From a virus (taxonomy: Duplodnaviria; Caudoviricetes): DNA of 64,000 nucleotides. The DNA is taken from positions 173,725 to 237,724 of IMG/VR virus record IMGVR_UViG_3300042291_000844; one strand, 5' to 3'. This document shows positions 7,956 through 12,177 of the stretch, in pieces (positions within the stretch are counted from its first letter, which is position 1; each line of letters opens with the position of its first letter). Position numbers and translations under genes: made by a program. Under the pieces are notes generated by a model, which saw only the letters and a list, made by a program, of their open reading frames with translations, was not told the origin of the DNA and ran no database searches.

Positions 7956-8019
7956 ATTGACTCATTTATTCTTTGATATACTATATCACCCCATAGGGGT
8001 AACCAACCTATTTTTTCCT

Positions 8020-8150
8020 AGAGTGAAAAAGCTCGCCTCGATAAAAAAACGTATCCGAGCCCCTTCGGGCCTCTTCGCCTTTTCTTGAGTTACAAGAAAC
8101 CTCAAGGGGGCGGGGTCAGCGTGAGCTCCCCTCCCTCGTGATACATATTG
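8020..8150 (-). other. GC-rich multi-hairpin intergenic element with U-tracts (terminator/attenuator or sRNA)
   Basis: Stems GGGG..CCCC, CTTGAG/CTCAAG, GCCC-GAAG-GGGC, GCTCG/CGAGC, followed by T7 and T5 runs. Confidence 0.45.
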
Positions 8151-8158
8151 TTACATAC

Positions 8159-8497
8159 TTAGCCTAAGAGGTCTACTTGTGGGTTTGCCGCAATTTCCTC
8201 CGGAGTCATAGAACTTGAGAGACCTAACTCTTGAAGTTCGCGAATCGCTTCCCTCTTTCCTCCCCTAATAAGATTCTCTGCTCCCTGTACATCTACCGCG
8301 ATAATTGCTTTATCTAAAGTGATGTATCTTCTATCTATGATAGATTTCATTTTTGCTGGTCCCTTCTCTATCCATACCATATCGGGATACTTCTCTGATG
8401 GGGTATATAGAATCTTTACGTTCTTATACTTCCATACTCCCTCTTCCATTTCTTTTAATCCGTTCATACTATTGTGTGTTTTATTTATTTGAGTCAT
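8159..8497 (-). CDS. Hypothetical protein
   Basis: 112 aa ORF. Confidence 0.75.
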   Translation of the reverse strand: MTQINKTHNSMNGLKEMEEGVWKYKNVKILYTPSEKYPDMVWIEKGPAKMKSIIDRRYITLDKAIIAVDVQGAENLIRGGKREAIRELQELGLSSSMTPEEIAANPQVDLLG

Positions 8498-8511: not shown

Positions 8512-9090
8512 TTACGCAACCTTTAAGTAAGGTAAGGCTTTCTCGATAGTGGCATCGGTTACTTTGTAACTCTTAACCTTCTCAATCGCCTTCTCTAAGG
8601 ATATCGGTCCCCAAACGTACTTACCGGCAATCATATCGGTCAACATACGAATCACATCAGGATATGTTCCGAAAGGCGCCTTATTACCAACATGAACATA
8701 TTTCACACCTGCCTCTATATCCATACCCTTCTCAGTCTTCATACCACTTACTTCGTATGAATCGTAACAATCTGTCCAACCATTAAACTTACCATACTCA
8801 AATGAGTTGGCGATAGTTCTAATATCAGCGTATATCGCTGGTGATACTTCCGAACCATCTGGCATACACATATCCACATCTAAGGAGTTACCATTAGCGA
8901 AGGATGATGATTTACACCATATCAGGATATTAGGGTATTTGGACTTGGTATATGATTTAACTATCTTACCCGCGATTACTGGACTACCATATACATAGGG
9001 GGTAACACCATCATTTCTCATTCTGATGACCTCTGCAGGTAACTCAACTTTAACTCCATTTACTACGATTGCGATTTTCTTACTTTTCAT
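8512..9090 (-). CDS. LPD29-like (polyvalent protein-associated domain) early protein
   Basis: YPNILIWCKSSSFANGNSLDV...FEYGKFNGWTDCY matches the recalled LPD29 pattern. Confidence 0.55.
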   Translation of the reverse strand: MKSKKIAIVVNGVKVELPAEVIRMRNDGVTPYVYGSPVIAGKIVKSYTKSKYPNILIWCKSSSFANGNSLDVDMCMPDGSEVSPAIYADIRTIANSFEYGKFNGWTDCYDSYEVSGMKTEKGMDIEAGVKYVHVGNKAPFGTYPDVIRMLTDMIAGKYVWGPISLEKAIEKVKSYKVTDATIEKALPYLKVA

Positions 9091-9122
9091 GTTTTATATT
9101 TTAATTGTTTATCTCTTATTAC

Positions 9123-9159
9123 AAAGCTAACATACGAAGAATAATCGGTATTACCAAAT
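9123..9159 (-). promoter_or_regulatory. Bacteroidota-type promoter (TATGTTAG variant)
   Basis: TTTG-N20-TATGTTAGCTTT. Confidence 0.75.
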
Positions 9160-9195
9160 GTTTTACCAATTATTTTTCAGAAAGTTATCAACATT

Positions 9196-9654
9196 TTATG
9201 CCGCCTTAGGGGTATTGTAAACGAAGGACTTACAACTATGGAACTTCGTGTTCATTCTCTTCCATATGTTCCAGTCAACCATCTTAGGGAACGCACCATG
9301 CATATCACCTACTGTCAGTGCCTCTAAGAGGTTCATATCTATACTACACCATTTACCACCCTTAGTAGTCAGAACGTGAAACCAATTGGATTTACCATTG
9401 GTAACCCTCTCTACCTCCACCACTGTGGTGTTCTTAGATAGGTAATAGGGTAATGACTCCACCTTACACTCTACATCACATATCATAGGGAATCCGGCTC
9501 TTGCCTTCGCAGTGTATCTGAATCGGTGTTCCTTACCGGGTTCAGTTAACTTACTAACGATAACATTCGCTCCATTAATACGGATGTTACCATAGAACAC
9601 ATCCCCACCCATTGTACCTTTGTTTACTTCGATTAAATTTGTCATATCTCTCAT
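9196..9654 (-). CDS. Hypothetical early protein (MRDM leader)
   Basis: 152 aa, starts in the shared leader ATGAGAGATATG. Confidence 0.75.
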   Translation of the reverse strand: MRDMTNLIEVNKGTMGGDVFYGNIRINGANVIVSKLTEPGKEHRFRYTAKARAGFPMICDVECKVESLPYYLSKNTTVVEVERVTNGKSNWFHVLTTKGGKWCSIDMNLLEALTVGDMHGAFPKMVDWNIWKRMNTKFHSCKSFVYNTPKAA

Positions 9655-9661
9655 TGTTTAT

Positions 9662-9698
9662 AAAGCTAATCTACAACTAATAATCCACATTTCCAAAT
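9662..9698 (-). promoter_or_regulatory. Bacteroidota-type promoter (TAGATTAG variant)
   Basis: TTTG-N20-TAGATTAGCTTTATAAACAATGAGAG. Confidence 0.75.
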
Positions 9699-9730
9699 AT
9701 TTAACCATTTATTTTTGAACTATTTTAGGC

Positions 9731-9945
9731 AAAAAATAACCCATCCCGCGGAGGCTAATCTCGAGATGGGTAGTTCAGAATGAACATTTCAGGATAGGAG
9801 AGAATGAGAGGCCTCCCTTTAACTACTTCATAACTAACCCCTTAGCTATGAGTAGGGTAATAGACACCCGTGTGGTAATACCCGCGGGATTTACAACTAT
9901 ATCTTCCGGCATCCTAGAGTACACTCAATCGGATGACCTATTCTT
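9731..9945 (-). ncRNA. Candidate structured ncRNA (~215 nt) with own promoter and terminator
   Basis: Between promoter 9948-9984 and terminator ACCCATCTCG/CGGGATGGGT+T6; several internal helices; only a 29-codon ORF (9823-9912). Confidence 0.6.
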
Positions 9946-9947
9946 AT

Positions 9948-9984
9948 AAAGCTAAGATACGAATAAAAATCCGTATTTCCAAAT
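9948..9984 (-). promoter_or_regulatory. Bacteroidota-type promoter driving the ncRNA candidate
   Basis: Identical to 3871-3907. Confidence 0.8.
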
Positions 9985-9993
9985 TTAATGTGT

Positions 9994-10024
9994 AAAAAAA
10001 TGGGACCTATTACAGTCCCATTTG
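9994..10024 (-). terminator. Intrinsic terminator of 10050..10271
   Basis: ATGGGAC/GTCCCAT stem followed by a T run on the minus strand. Confidence 0.85.
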
Positions 10025-10049
10025 TTATTACCTAACCATTAGATGCTAA

Positions 10050-10271
10050 TTAAGCAGCCAATAATTCTTTTCTAGCGATACGTGCCTTATTCAAAGACTT
10101 CGTAGATACTGAAAATTTCTCACCCTCAACAGCTACACGTACTCTGTAACTTACGTTACCAGTAGGGCTAGTGATTTTTTGGATGTTTGATTGAACTGAC
10201 TCATACTGAGTTTTTCTCTTTGCAGATGCCTTCTTTGAAGTTGTCCCTGCTTTCTTTGAGATTTTTGTCAT
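10050..10271 (-). CDS. Small basic protein with AP2/integrase-type DNA-binding-like domain
   Basis: Lys-rich tail plus SYRVRVAVEGEKFSVSTKSLNKARIARKEL (three strands then a helix). Confidence 0.55.
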   Translation of the reverse strand: MTKISKKAGTTSKKASAKRKTQYESVQSNIQKITSPTGNVSYRVRVAVEGEKFSVSTKSLNKARIARKELLAA

Positions 10272-10346
10272 AGTGTTTATGATTTAATGGCCTGTGTTGA
10301 ATAGGGGTCCCAAGCCTTTACCCCATTTATTAATGTTGTTTACTTA

Positions 10347-10380
10347 GTAAAGATACGACAATTATTTGATACTACCAAAT
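10347..10380 (-). promoter_or_regulatory. Bacteroidota-type promoter (TATCTTTA)
   Basis: TTTG-N20-TATCTTTA; 5' UTR hairpin GGGGT/ACCCC downstream. Confidence 0.7.
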
Positions 10381-10470
10381 ATTTGGGTAACTATTTTTTG
10401 GATTACTTCCCATAGGGTAGGTTGTTCCATTGTTATTACGTCCACATAGGACTGAATACGTCTACTCATA

Positions 10471-10671
10471 TTATCGGTTTTCGTTTAAGGTGAATAGGGA
10501 TTTGGGTAGTGGAGTATGTGATTCAATGACACCCAATAGATATCCAGCTCTTTCAGCTATTCTATTTATCTCACTCTCTTCACGGTCTCTAATCCATGTA
10601 TCACTATTGAACATTTCGGATAATGCTATCTTAAGCACCTCCACGTGTTCGGGGGTTAAATTCAATTTCAT
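10471..10671 (-). CDS. Hypothetical protein
   Basis: 66 aa. Confidence 0.65.
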   Translation of the reverse strand: MKLNLTPEHVEVLKIALSEMFNSDTWIRDREESEINRIAERAGYLLGVIESHTPLPKSLFTLNENR

Positions 10672-10672
10672 A

Positions 10673-10873
10673 TTAATCGTTTATAAATTTACCATCTATG
10701 AAGAGGATGTTGGTATCATCTTCCAATAGGATGTTATAGTACCCATCGTTGAAATTGGTTAAACATACATCCAACCATTCATAGTTGATATTGTTGGTAT
10801 CCAACCACTTATCGAATTTAACGGCATCTATGCCTTTACTATTGGCTTTCTGAATAATCTCTTGAGTTGTCAT
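10673..10873 (-). CDS. Hypothetical protein
   Basis: Start moved to ATG 10873 (MTTQEII), just after the stop of 10875..10988. Confidence 0.7.
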   Translation of the reverse strand: MTTQEIIQKANSKGIDAVKFDKWLDTNNINYEWLDVCLTNFNDGYYNILLEDDTNILFIDGKFIND

Positions 10874-10874
10874 A

Positions 10875-10988
10875 TTACTTGTGTTTAATGTGTTGTAAGG
10901 TGGTTTTAAAAAAGGCGTATCCAACGATGGTTACTACTGCGATTAATACCGCTTCTAAAATTGTAATGTGTGTGTTCATATCTCTCAT
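10875..10988 (-). CDS. Small single-TM protein (37 aa, MRDM leader, not in ORF track)
   Basis: MRDMNTHITILEAVLIAVVTIVGYAFFKTTLQHIKHK directly behind promoter. Confidence 0.65.
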   Translation of the reverse strand: MRDMNTHITILEAVLIAVVTIVGYAFFKTTLQHIKHK

Positions 10989-10994
10989 TGTTAT

Positions 10995-11031
10995 AAAGCT
11001 AAGATACGGCAGTTTTTCCGTATTTCCAAAT
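10995..11031 (-). promoter_or_regulatory. Bacteroidota-type promoter (TATCTTAG)
   Basis: Same motif; spacer holds the ATACGG/CCGTAT inverted repeat. Confidence 0.8.
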
Positions 11032-11894: not shown

Positions 11895-12134
11895 TTATTT
11901 GTTTGTAAAAAGTTTATCAATAGTAGAAGGAGAGTAATCAGATAGTGAAAGGAAGTTCACTAGGTTACATACACTATCGTAACTCAACCTCGTCCAATTG
12001 ACTTCGGTTCTTAACTCATCCAGTACCATACTGATGGTATAAGGAAAAGAAGGTTCAGTACTTAATAGATACTCCAGATGATTTGGATTCAATCGGTAGT
12101 AAAGGGAATTAGGGTTGTATTTCATATCTCTCAT
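11895..12134 (-). CDS. Hypothetical early protein (MRDM leader)
   Basis: 79 aa behind promoter. Confidence 0.75.
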   Translation of the reverse strand: MRDMKYNPNSLYYRLNPNHLEYLLSTEPSFPYTISMVLDELRTEVNWTRLSYDSVCNLVNFLSLSDYSPSTIDKLFTNK

Positions 12135-12140
12135 TGTTAT

Positions 12141-12177
12141 AAAGCTAATCTACACATAATATTCCACATTTCCAAAT
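12141..12177 (-). promoter_or_regulatory. Bacteroidota-type promoter (TAGATTAG)
   Basis: Near copy of 9662-9698 including the leader. Confidence 0.8.

What the first reader, a model, noticed from the sequence alone, without database searches (positions are those of the whole stretch)
9731..9945. Stand-alone ~215-nt structured RNA gene in the early cassette array
Seen: a full cassette promoter (9948-9984) and an intrinsic terminator (9731-9771) enclose GC-rich DNA with only a 29-codon ORF lacking the cassette leader. Predicted helices: CATCC/GGATG with inner GAGT/ACTC; GGGTA/TACCC; CATAGCTAA-GGGG-TTAGTTATG (9 bp); GTAGTT/AACTAC enclosing GGAG/CTCC and GTTCA/TGAAC. A perfect 9-bp long-range pair ATCCCGCGG/CCGCGGGAT (9882-9890 with 9743-9751) competes with the terminator stem. 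I do not recognise it as tRNA, tmRNA, 6S, SRP or a hammerhead. Inference: a novel abundant early phage ncRNA (decoy, antitoxin mimic or regulator).
Basis: partly seen in the sequence, partly recalled or inferred. Interest (0 to 1): 0.75.

Follow-up and report, generated by a model that had tools for sequence, protein, structure and literature searches.

The report
New structured small RNA of giant lake phages
Between its own promoter and terminator, this giant lake-water phage carries a gene for a folded, non-coding RNA of about 205 bases; relatives keep it far more strictly than the neighbouring protein genes, no RNA library holds it, and its job is unknown.

Summary
On the minus strand, a copy of the phage's repeated cassette promoter (9983-9944) and a hairpin plus U-run (9771-9731) enclose about 205 nt with no conserved ORF.

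I found the unit in more than 35 metagenomic or viral contigs, giving 24 distinct sequences. Two are from IMG/VR; one of these is a complete 287-kb genome that also encodes ribosomal protein bS21.

Comparison supports a folded RNA:
- 96% of pair cells are kept.
- 16 of 54 pairs change on both sides, against 7.2 +/- 1.8 in shuffles and 0-3 in slid controls.
- Covariation lies in P1, P3 and the terminator stem. G-U pairs fix the strand.

His 9-bp long-range pair and the GGGTA/TACCC helix are not conserved.

The 3' half (P3 to terminator) shows 2 substitutions in 122 nt where neighbouring genes differ at 19-39% of third codon positions. The middle domain comes in discrete alleles.

Every downstream gene has its own promoter, so the unit is a stand-alone RNA rather than a leader. 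Rfam, ARAGORN and 151 Bacteroidia genomes gave no match.

Function is unknown. My tentative mechanism (about 0.2) is interference with Shine-Dalgarno-dependent initiation, through an invariant AAAGGGAGG tract and CU-rich CCUCC-type tracts. Another first-stage reading of this scan had flagged the same stretch.

The parts
9944..9983 (-). Cassette promoter of the RNA. It has TTTGGAAAT upstream and a -7-type box TAGCTTTA at 9954-9947. The start site is inferred at about 9941-9938.
   Evidence: 5 exact-pattern copies in the window, 0 expected. This promoter travels with the RNA into other contexts, and its spacer (GATTTTTATTCGTATC) is kept even in L044, L045 and L111. The start site is inferred from the spacing of Bacteroidota-type promoters (general knowledge); it is not measured.
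9731..9941 (-). The RNA itself, about 205-210 nt. Its 5' end is inferred; its 3' end lies in the U-run.
   Evidence: Conserved block in 24 distinct sequences. Conservation stops right after the U-run, where four or more different downstream contexts begin.
9908..9938 (-). P1, the 5' hairpin: GG/CC, CAUCC/GGAUG and GAG/CUC, with an invariant internal loop GAUU / UA.
   Evidence: C-G to U-G change in 7-8 sequences. The apical loop varies (UGUA, UGUU, AUAU, UGU). The outer stem is rebuilt with other letters in L044 (GAUAC/GUAUC) and L045.
9860..9900 (-). P2, the variable middle domain. The tentative closing pairs are AUAG/CUAU and CCCG/CGGG. The window carries allele 'A'.
   Evidence: There are two discrete alleles, A (window-like) and B (L015-like, also in L044 and L045), and one recombinant (L041). 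In CCN/NGG one pair changes C-G to G-C in L045 (read). The alignment here is unreliable, so this helix is tentative.
9823..9855 (-). P3, a 14-bp hairpin (5 + 9 bp with one bulged A) capped by an invariant GGGG loop.
   Evidence: 6 of 14 pairs change on both sides, and 97.6% of cells are paired. The L044/L111 forms rewrite both strands yet keep the pairing and the GGGG loop.
9796..9818 (-). P4: the purine tract AGGGAGG (Shine-Dalgarno-like) paired with UCUC-U-CCU, with a CU-rich loop CCUCUCAU.
   Evidence: Both strands are invariant in all 24 sequences. Only the loop takes insertions, +U and +AA. Because the stem never varies, the pairing is neither proved nor disproved.
9773..9785 (-). P5, a small hairpin GUUCA-UUC-UGAAC.
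   Evidence: A-U to G-U change in 11-13 sequences; the loop reads UUC or CUC.
9731..9771 (-). Intrinsic terminator: a 10-bp stem, a 13-nt loop AGAUUAGCCUCCG and a U-run.
   Evidence: One compensatory U-A to C-G change and two wobble exchanges in 5 sequences; 100% of cells are paired. Inverted repeat I3.
9811..9816 (-). 5' strand (GGAGGC) of a candidate pseudoknot with the terminator loop.
   Evidence: GGAGGC/GCCUCC in the window becomes GGAGGUC/GACCUCC in L044, L045, L110, L111 and L117. This takes one inserted U plus the swap AG->GA in the loop, and gives 7 perfect pairs. It is one evolutionary event only, so the evidence is weak.
9750..9755 (-). 3' strand (GCCUCC, anti-Shine-Dalgarno-like) of the candidate pseudoknot, inside the terminator loop.
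   Evidence: Same evidence as the 5' strand.
9823..9924 (-). It is not a conserved gene.
   Evidence: In type B, ATG becomes ATT and a stop follows after 6 codons. The GTG is absent there as well. Other in-frame ORFs range from 12 to 35 codons with unrelated ends.

Best explanation
This is a real, independently transcribed, non-coding structured RNA gene and a new family.

A Bacteroidota-type cassette promoter fires a transcript of about 205 nt. It folds into a 5' hairpin (P1), a variable middle domain (P2), a long GGGG-capped hairpin (P3), two small hairpins (P4, P5) and its own intrinsic terminator. The promoter, RNA and terminator move together as one module within the early-gene cassette arrays of a clade of giant freshwater phages that encode bS21.

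Because every gene behind it has its own promoter, the RNA most likely acts in trans.

The step I infer, but have not shown, concerns how it works. The almost invariant 3' domain holds an extended Shine-Dalgarno-like tract (AAAGGGAGG). It also holds three CU-rich anti-Shine-Dalgarno-like tracts: CCUCUC, UCUCUCCU, and CCUCC in the terminator loop. Through these, the RNA would interfere with the rare Shine-Dalgarno-dependent initiation of Bacteroidia. It could do this in either of two ways:
- as a decoy for ribosomes whose 16S tail is exposed;
- by masking the Shine-Dalgarno sites of the few mRNAs that have one, such as host rpsU or some phage mRNAs.

My odds: real non-coding RNA gene about 0.85-0.9; acts in trans about 0.65; this particular mechanism about 0.2.
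For: Unit and boundaries:
- Promoter pattern in 5 copies with 0 expected; hairpin plus U-run.
- Conservation starts at the promoter and ends at the U-run, although the DNA beyond differs between contigs.

Conservation:
- 24 distinct homologues.
- The 3' domain has 2 substitutions and 1 indel in 122 nt against type-B loci. In the same loci, flanking genes differ at 19-39% of third and 6-16% of first and second codon positions.
- Against the 287-kb relative, whose proteins have a median identity of 69%, every substitution from P4 to the terminator is a wobble change, a compensatory change, or one of the two loop letters that fit the pseudoknot.

Structure:
- 96.4% of cells are paired.
- 16 pairs change on both sides, against 7.2 +/- 1.8 in shuffles (0 of 500) and 0-3 in slid controls (likewise).
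- Independent folds of L044 and L045 recover P1, P3 and the terminator.
- Conserved G-U pairs would be C-A on the other strand, so the folded strand is the minus strand.

Not coding:
- The start is lost, stops appear and ORF length varies. A 1-nt indel (CCUGAAAUG / CCUAAAUG) is polymorphic in several lineages.

Trans rather than cis:
- In all 14 contexts read, a cassette promoter precedes the next gene. That gene varies: a 152-aa, a 192-aa or a 78-82-aa protein, among others.

Transcription:
- Contigs from lake metatranscriptomes of three studies cover the RNA. An L045-type variant appears as well.

Context for the mechanism:
- The tract pairs with a Flavobacterium-type 16S tail at -14.0 kcal/mol, better than any of 350 gene starts in the 287-kb relative, whose best is -11.6.
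- That genome encodes bS21.
- In Bacteroidia an extended Shine-Dalgarno site is nearly confined to rpsU and is read by ribosomes lacking bS21 (PMC9976891). I saw AAAGGAGGT-type sites before rpsU in 5 of 30 sampled genomes.
Against: - No 5' or 3' end has been measured. The RNA-library evidence is from assembled contigs, which may hold DNA and cannot show strand or ends. One contig runs straight from the 73-aa gene into the RNA.
- Fold energies are not better than shuffles.
- The covariation counts come from an alignment fitted to the model, and the sequences are related. L044, L110, L111 and L117 repeat the same events.
- For the mechanism: GGAGG is not rare (88 on the coding strand of the 287-kb relative), and GGGAGG may simply be a stem strand.
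- P4 and the terminator-loop tract never vary apart from one joint event, so neither P4 nor the pseudoknot is proved.
- A terminator loop with only 1 nt after the paired tract is sterically tight for a pseudoknot.
- No mRNA target stood out in the window or in the relative's 350 gene starts.
- The strongest Shine-Dalgarno-like gene starts in the relative belong to a mixed set (helicase, endolysin, nuclease), not to virion genes.
- The CCUCC loop would pair with only 5-6 bp of an rpsU site.
Confidence: 0.55

Rival explanations
1. A cis-acting leader or attenuator. The transcript would exist to be terminated or read through, like the lambda pR' '6S' transcript under Q, HK022 put RNA, or a pyrBI-type leader. 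In the last case a ribosome on a short ORF (AUU or AUG after the GGGAGG tract) unfolds the terminator. Its output would be the expression of the genes behind it.
For: - It has the same orientation as all downstream genes, and its terminator is perfectly kept.
- A Shine-Dalgarno-like tract sits 6-9 nt before a conserved AUU. The ORFs from there, or from the AUG at 9788-9786, run into or up to the terminator stem (read).
- One metatranscriptome contig is continuous across units.
Against: - A full cassette promoter precedes the next gene in all 14 contexts.
- The next gene differs between contexts.
- In several relatives, 85-270 nt of unrelated DNA lie in between.
- The short ORF's frame is broken by a common 1-nt indel, and its stop codon is lost in L044 and L045.
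Confidence: 0.13
2. A trans-acting decoy or mimic aimed at a host defence or another host protein. Examples would be a mimic of a host RNA such as a CRISPR repeat or tracrRNA, or a sponge for an RNA-binding protein. The variable P2 domain would be the part under an arms race.
For: - It lies in the early takeover region.
- It has a modular build, with an invariant scaffold plus a middle domain in discrete alleles and a recombinant.
- GAUU recurs in two conserved unpaired places: the P1 internal loop and the terminator loop.
Against: - No likeness to any Rfam family.
- Two invariant 20-nt blocks were absent from 185,579 species genomes, apart from two chance hits inside genes.
- The covariance model found nothing in 151 sampled Bacteroidia genomes.
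- The host is unknown, so this is weak evidence.
Confidence: 0.17
3. A small-protein gene: the 29/33-aa ORF, the type-B ORF that begins MKDT, or a micropeptide from the AUG at 9788. The RNA structure would be secondary.
For: - An ORF in one frame runs through P3 in both type A and type B and ends ...IAKGLVMK.
- Three of seven differences between the window and L009 are synonymous in that frame.
Against: - The start is lost (ATG to ATT) with a stop after 6 codons in type B.
- ORF length ranges from 12 to 35 codons with unrelated C-termini in L024, L044 and L045.
- Compensatory changes in P3 rewrite the peptide.
- No synonymous drift appears in the 3' domain.
- There is no protein-level similarity to anything fetched.
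Confidence: 0.04
4. A DNA-level element (origin, protein-binding site, recombination hotspot) or a decayed gene remnant, not a functional RNA.
For: - Palindromes such as CCCGCGGG.
- A 1-kb ORF-free region lies 2 kb upstream (other readers' notes).
- The cassettes are shuffled between genomes.
Against: - Strand-specific G-U pairs and compensatory changes.
- A dedicated promoter and terminator are kept with it.
- The constraint is stronger than at second codon positions.
- There is no protein remnant by blastx.
- The palindromes are not conserved.
Confidence: 0.04

Closest known systems
Stand-alone small RNAs of lytic phages with unknown or partly known roles, such as the T4 stable RNAs C and D (named from general knowledge)
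   Same: A short, stable-looking, structured transcript made from the phage's own promoter in the non-structural part of the genome. It is non-coding.
   Different: There is no sequence or Rfam relation. It is not tRNA-like and does not lie in the tRNA cluster. It has its own terminator rather than being processed from a tRNA precursor.
Lambda pR' '6S' transcript / HK022 put RNA (short promoter-proximal transcripts that serve antitermination; general knowledge)
   Same: About 200 nt between a strong promoter and a strong terminator, in the same direction as the genes behind.
   Different: In those systems the genes behind depend on read-through. Here each has its own promoter, and the neighbours vary. 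No conserved antiterminator pairing exists.
C-rich anti-Shine-Dalgarno sRNAs of Firmicutes (RsaE/RoxS type; general knowledge)
   Same: Several unpaired C/U-rich tracts that could pair with G-rich ribosome-binding sites; an intrinsic terminator at the 3' end.
   Different: No homology, since Rfam includes RsaE and gave no match. The presumed hosts hardly use Shine-Dalgarno sites. This RNA also carries a Shine-Dalgarno-like tract of its own. No target was found.
rpsU leader of Flavobacteriales with its extended Shine-Dalgarno site (PMC9976891, PMC7797042)
   Same: An A-run followed by GGAGG(U), able to form 8-9 pairs with the 16S tail. Such sites are rare in Bacteroidia.
   Different: It has an extra G (AAAGGGAGG). 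No AUG sits at the right distance, only AUU. It lies in a phage RNA without a conserved ORF, and ribosome binding is untested.
phi29 pRNA (early, about 174-nt structured phage RNA; general knowledge)
   Same: An early-promoter-driven, multi-helix phage RNA whose relatives keep their structure better than their sequence in some helices.
   Different: pRNA belongs to small terminal-protein podoviruses and works on the packaging motor. Here the phage is a 190-290-kb myovirus-type genome, and no intermolecular loop pairs are conserved.

Membership tests
Any Rfam 15 family | Covariance-model score at or above the family's gathering score | tested here: not met
   0 matches in the whole window. Only 3 chance-level matches at E 0.15-2.1, mostly lying over the promoter and the neighbouring terminator. 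0 matches at E<=1 in the loci of the two diverged homologues.
tRNA / tmRNA | Cloverleaf, or tRNA-like domain plus tag ORF | tested here: not met
   ARAGORN found no gene in the window.
Riboswitch or attenuator leader (cis-regulatory) | Lies in the 5' UTR of the regulated gene, with no promoter in between | tested here: not met
   A cassette promoter follows the terminator in all 14 contexts read, and the downstream genes differ.
Riboswitch or attenuator leader (cis-regulatory) | A conserved alternative pairing that competes with the terminator | tested here: not met
   The 9-bp pair 9882-9890 / 9743-9751 is broken by G->T in many close relatives. It is absent in type B, L044 and L045.
6S RNA | A long, mostly double-stranded rod with a central open-promoter-like bubble | tested here: not met
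   The consensus fold is a string of six separate helices. There is no Rfam 6S match.
Type III antitoxin RNA (ToxI-like) | Tandem direct repeats of about 36 nt next to a toxin endoribonuclease gene | tested here: not met
   No tandem repeats. Only two weak two-copy direct repeats. The neighbours have no Pfam hit.
RNA anti-CRISPR / solitary repeat units | Sequence and fold of a host CRISPR repeat | tested here: inconclusive
   The host is unknown. Two invariant 20-nt blocks are absent from 185,579 species genomes except for chance hits. The model finds nothing in 151 Bacteroidia genomes. P3 itself was not scanned against the genomes.
Small-protein gene | An ORF kept in start, frame and length, with mostly synonymous change | tested here: not met
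   The start is lost, early stops appear and length ranges from 12 to 35 codons. A polymorphic 1-nt indel is present. Helices are kept at the expense of the peptide.
Intrinsically terminated bacterial/phage sRNA gene (generic kind) | Own promoter, own Rho-independent terminator, conserved structure, no conserved ORF | tested here: met
   Not tested: the measured transcript ends.

The most novel reading that the evidence does not exclude
The RNA would be the phage's tool for taking over the unusual translation initiation of Bacteroidia.

Its extended Shine-Dalgarno mimic and its CCUCC-type loops may pair with each other as an internal Shine-Dalgarno/anti-Shine-Dalgarno helix. Two routes would follow:
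- it traps the small pool of bS21-free ribosomes that alone translate host rpsU; or
- it masks Shine-Dalgarno-led mRNAs.

Either way, host bS21 could not be replenished, and the phage's own bS21 could re-programme the ribosomes. The authors of PMC9976891 predicted that such phages should have some means of helping bS21 exchange. An RNA doing this would be without precedent.
Probability: 0.12. Interest if true: 0.9.

Novelty: new member of a known kind. Interest (0 to 1): 0.6.

Why it matters
Very few non-coding RNAs of lytic phages are known, and to my knowledge none has been described for the giant bS21-encoding phages of freshwater Bacteroidota.

This one is kept more strictly than the proteins around it. 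It travels as a self-contained promoter-RNA-terminator module. Lake metatranscriptome contigs from several studies cover it.

It gives a concrete, short and easily synthesised molecule with which to probe early host takeover in a phage group that has no cultured model. If the Shine-Dalgarno link holds, it also gives a direct handle on how these phages exploit the hidden anti-Shine-Dalgarno sequence of their hosts.

The covariance model built here can be used at once to chart the family in metagenomes.

Tried and rejected
- **Known RNA families.** Rfam at gathering score and at E<=10 or E<=1, and ARAGORN, found nothing.
- **Cultured phages.** blastn of 9000-11000 against 50,697 phage records gave no match.
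- **IMG/VR scans.** The exact P3, the promoter pattern and the exact P4 found nothing. A protein-based scan with the 152-aa neighbour also found nothing. Only degenerate P4 and P5 patterns found L044 and L045.
- **Pseudogene idea.** blastx of the unit against 120 homologues of the neighbouring gene gave nothing significant. The 13-nt sense identity with that gene's 3' end is at chance level.
- **Antisense targets.** Complementary runs in the window are no longer than with shuffled RNA (longest 12 nt; shuffles reach 10-15). Duplex energies of the 3' domain with 350 gene starts of the 287-kb relative are no better than shuffles.
- **Host origin or mimicry.** Two 20-nt blocks scanned against 185,579 species genomes gave 0 and 2 hits; both hits lie inside genes. 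The model found nothing in 151 Bacteroidia genomes searched.
- **Partner-protein idea.** The 73-aa gene sits directly upstream in the 14 close contexts tabulated. It is missing from the complete 287-kb genome that has the RNA, and it is present without the RNA in L025-L032. They are not an obligate pair.
- **Shine-Dalgarno-led virion genes.** I looked for them in the 287-kb relative as targets. The strongest sites belong to a mixed set of genes.
- **Metatranscriptome contigs.** They cannot give ends, strand or level. Parts without cover are no finding.
- **Not reachable.** Whole records behind metagenome loci could not be searched, and no whole genome is held for the window.

Full report
**1. 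What is there**

All genes in this part of the window lie on the minus strand, so I read the finding on that strand. Read 5' to 3' it holds the following:
- The terminator of a 73-aa gene: hairpin at 10020-10001 and T-run at 10000-9994.
- A copy of the phage's repeated promoter, TTTGGAAAT-N19-TTAGCTTTATAA, at 9983-9944. The window has five exact-pattern copies where none is expected.
- About 205 nt without a credible ORF.
- A 10-bp hairpin with a 13-nt loop, followed by TATTTTTT (9771-9731).
- Thirty bases later, the next cassette promoter (9697-9658) and its 152-aa gene.

Two of his points are weaker than stated:
- G+C is only 43-45%.
- The fold energy is not clearly better than shuffles: z = -1.87 for the window, and -0.08 and -0.92 for two relatives.

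**2. Where the window comes from**

No whole genome is held for the window. Earlier notes of this scan place it in a giant freshwater phage that encodes bS21 and probably infects Bacteroidota. Another first-stage reading had flagged the same stretch as a stand-alone non-coding unit.

**3. Relatives**

- The 152-aa gene has 361 homologue clusters. Contigs around some of them carry the RNA at the same place (L009, L010). More distant ones (L001-L008) do not.
- A scan of metagenome contigs with a 21-nt piece of P4 gave 14 loci.
- Contexts of the 73-aa protein gave ten more.
- A degenerate pattern found two diverged copies in IMG/VR: L044 in a complete 287-kb genome and L045.
- Contexts of the gene downstream of L045 gave a third diverged group, L110-L117.

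In all there are 24 distinct sequences. Relatives whose 73-aa protein is only 66% identical (L025-L032) lack the RNA.

**4. It is a module with sharp edges**

Conservation begins at the promoter, whose spacer is specific to this RNA. It ends right after the U-run, beyond which at least four unrelated continuations occur.

- The upstream gene is the 73-aa gene in the close relatives, but another gene in L044 and L045.
- The 287-kb genome has the RNA once and no 73-aa homologue.
- In all 14 contexts read, the next gene has its own cassette promoter, and that gene differs between contexts.

This argues against a leader or attenuator and for a stand-alone product.

**5. Selection**

Against type-B loci, the 122-nt 3' domain shows 2 substitutions and one 3-nt indel. 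Both substitutions turn A-U into G-U. In the same loci the flanking genes differ at 19-39% of third codon positions and at 6-16% of first and second positions.

Against the 287-kb relative, whose proteins have a median identity of 69%, the stretch from P4 to the terminator has 7 substitutions. All are of three kinds: wobble changes, compensatory changes, or the two loop letters discussed in section 8.

**6. Structure**

I built a covariance model on my reading of the helices. It aligns all homologues end to end. On the 24 distinct sequences:
- 96.4% of pair cells are standard pairs.
- 16 of 54 pairs show changes on both sides, against 7.2 +/- 1.8 after shuffling (0 of 500) and 0-3 when partners are slid (one search is similar).

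| Helix | Support |
|---|---|
| P3 | Best supported. 6 of 14 pairs change on both sides. The L044 group rewrites both strands while keeping the GGGG loop. |
| Terminator stem | One U-A to C-G change and two wobble exchanges. |
| P1 | Keeps its inner pairs. Its outer stem is rebuilt with other letters in L044 and L045. |
| P5 | Varies only A-U to G-U. |
| P4 | Never varies, so it is neither supported nor contradicted. |
| P2 | Tentative, because the alignment there is unreliable. |

Caveats:
- The alignment is fitted to the model.
- The sequences are related.
- Several diverged rows repeat the same events.

Independent single-sequence folds of L044 and L045 still recover P1, P3 and the terminator. 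Conserved G-U pairs tie the fold to the minus strand.

**7.

- P1, P3, P4 and P5 agree with his helices.
- GGGTA/TACCC is absent from type B.
- GTAGTT/AACTAC overlaps the outer stem of P3, which has a compensatory U-A to C-G change in L024 and L033.
- The 9-bp pair that would compete with the terminator is broken by G->T in many close relatives. It is missing in the diverged forms.
- The 29/33-codon ORF fails his own test. In type B the ATG reads ATT and a stop follows. Other ORFs in that frame run 12-35 codons with unrelated ends. A 1-nt indel before the AUG at 9788 is polymorphic in several lineages.

**8. Anatomy worth noting**

The middle domain comes in discrete forms:
- Type A is window-like, with a small hot spot that reads CACAC, TGGCT, CACGT and so on.
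- Type B, also found in the most diverged copies, has a conserved loop AGGYRAUGAAAG.
- L041 is a recombinant of the two.

The 3' domain is almost frozen. It holds:
- an A-run plus GGGAGG;
- CU-rich tracts: CCUCUC, UCUCUCCUAUCCU, and CCUCC in the terminator loop.

GGAGGC can pair with the loop's GCCUCC. In the five diverged sequences an inserted U and the loop swap AG to GA turn this into a perfect 7-bp GGAGGUC/GACCUCC. This hints at a pseudoknot. It is one event only, and the 1-nt link to the terminator's 3' strand would be tight.

**9. Expression**

Eighteen lake, river or estuary metatranscriptome runs hold part of 9500-10300. I laid four of them:
- Contigs cover the RNA in X1 (9760-9907, depth 2), X3 (9726-10133, depth 7) and X4 (from 9875).
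- An L045-type variant shows up as a loose end in X3.
- The 73-aa gene is far deeper, up to about 100.

These are assembled contigs. They may contain DNA and show neither ends nor strand. Transcription is therefore consistent with the data but not proved, and 'abundant' is not shown.

**10. What it might do**

Several searches gave nothing:
- No antisense target beyond chance, in the window or at 350 gene starts of the 287-kb relative.
- No host counterpart.
- No obligate protein partner.

The one feature that connects with known biology is the purine tract. That is better than any gene start in the relative, whose best is -11.6.

The surrounding facts are these:
- In Bacteroidia the anti-Shine-Dalgarno sequence is hidden by bS21, bS18 and bS6.
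- Extended Shine-Dalgarno sites are almost confined to rpsU.
- Such sites are read by ribosomes that lack bS21 (PMC7797042, PMC9976891).
- I saw AAAGGAGGT-type sites before rpsU in 5 of 30 sampled genomes.
- The phage clade encodes its own bS21 (PMC9723584, which mentions no non-coding RNA).

A decoy or masking role in Shine-Dalgarno-dependent initiation is therefore my preferred mechanism. I give it only about 0.2, for three reasons:
- GGAGG is common.
- The tract may be just a stem strand.
- The strongest Shine-Dalgarno-like starts in the relative are not virion genes.

**11. Verdict**

This is a real, new family of structured non-coding RNA in a clade of giant freshwater phages, carried as a self-contained promoter-RNA-terminator module.
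- His antiterminator pair, the abundance claim and the functional guesses are not.
- Function remains open.

Noticed in passing
window 9654-9697, 10988-11030, 12134-12176: In the protein-coding cassettes the ATG lies about 5 nt after the -7 box (TTAGCTTTATAAACAATGAGAGAT). These early mRNAs would therefore be leaderless or nearly so.
   Followed up: no
window 7956-8158 (minus strand): A 200-nt ORF-free stretch with 53-57% G+C lies behind gene 8159-8497. It has G/C-rich hairpins and a T7 run but no cassette promoter. Relatives keep the gap (L019 4345-4557). It may be only a compound terminator, or another structured element.
   Followed up: partly
L016 2438-2620, L017, L033 2026-2190, L041 1777-2050, L020/L023 after the RNA: In some relatives, 85-270 nt of extra non-coding DNA sit between the RNA's terminator and the next promoter. 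They hold repeated units beginning GGGTAAGAAAATC and their own hairpin plus T-run. They may be small inserted elements.
   Followed up: no
window 10050-10271: A 73-aa basic protein (Lys/Ser-rich tail plus a YRVRV..GEK..KAR..EL domain) is the most deeply covered part of this stretch in lake metatranscriptome contigs, with depth up to about 100 in X3. It has no Pfam family. By eye it looks like an Arm/AP2-type nucleic-acid-binding domain; I did not test this.
   Followed up: partly
window 9887-9900 and 9230-9242: A 13-14-nt same-sense identity (ATAGTTGTAAATC) links the RNA's variable domain and the 3' end of the 152-aa gene. It is seen in all homologues of that gene. The BLAST E-value of 0.4 puts it at chance level.
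   Followed up: yes
L019 1160-1191 and the matching place in L016, L017, L018, L022: The terminator hairpin behind the 143-aa gene, about 1.4 kb upstream, weakly resembles the apical part of P3 on the opposite strand (nhmmer E 0.02, cmsearch E 0.3).
   Followed up: no
L044 5655-5665 (G001 about 124960): In the 287-kb relative the 3' strand of P1 reads CUCUAGGAGGUA. This is a second strong Shine-Dalgarno-like tract in the same RNA, and it is absent from the window's P1 (CUCUAGGAUGCC).
   Followed up: no
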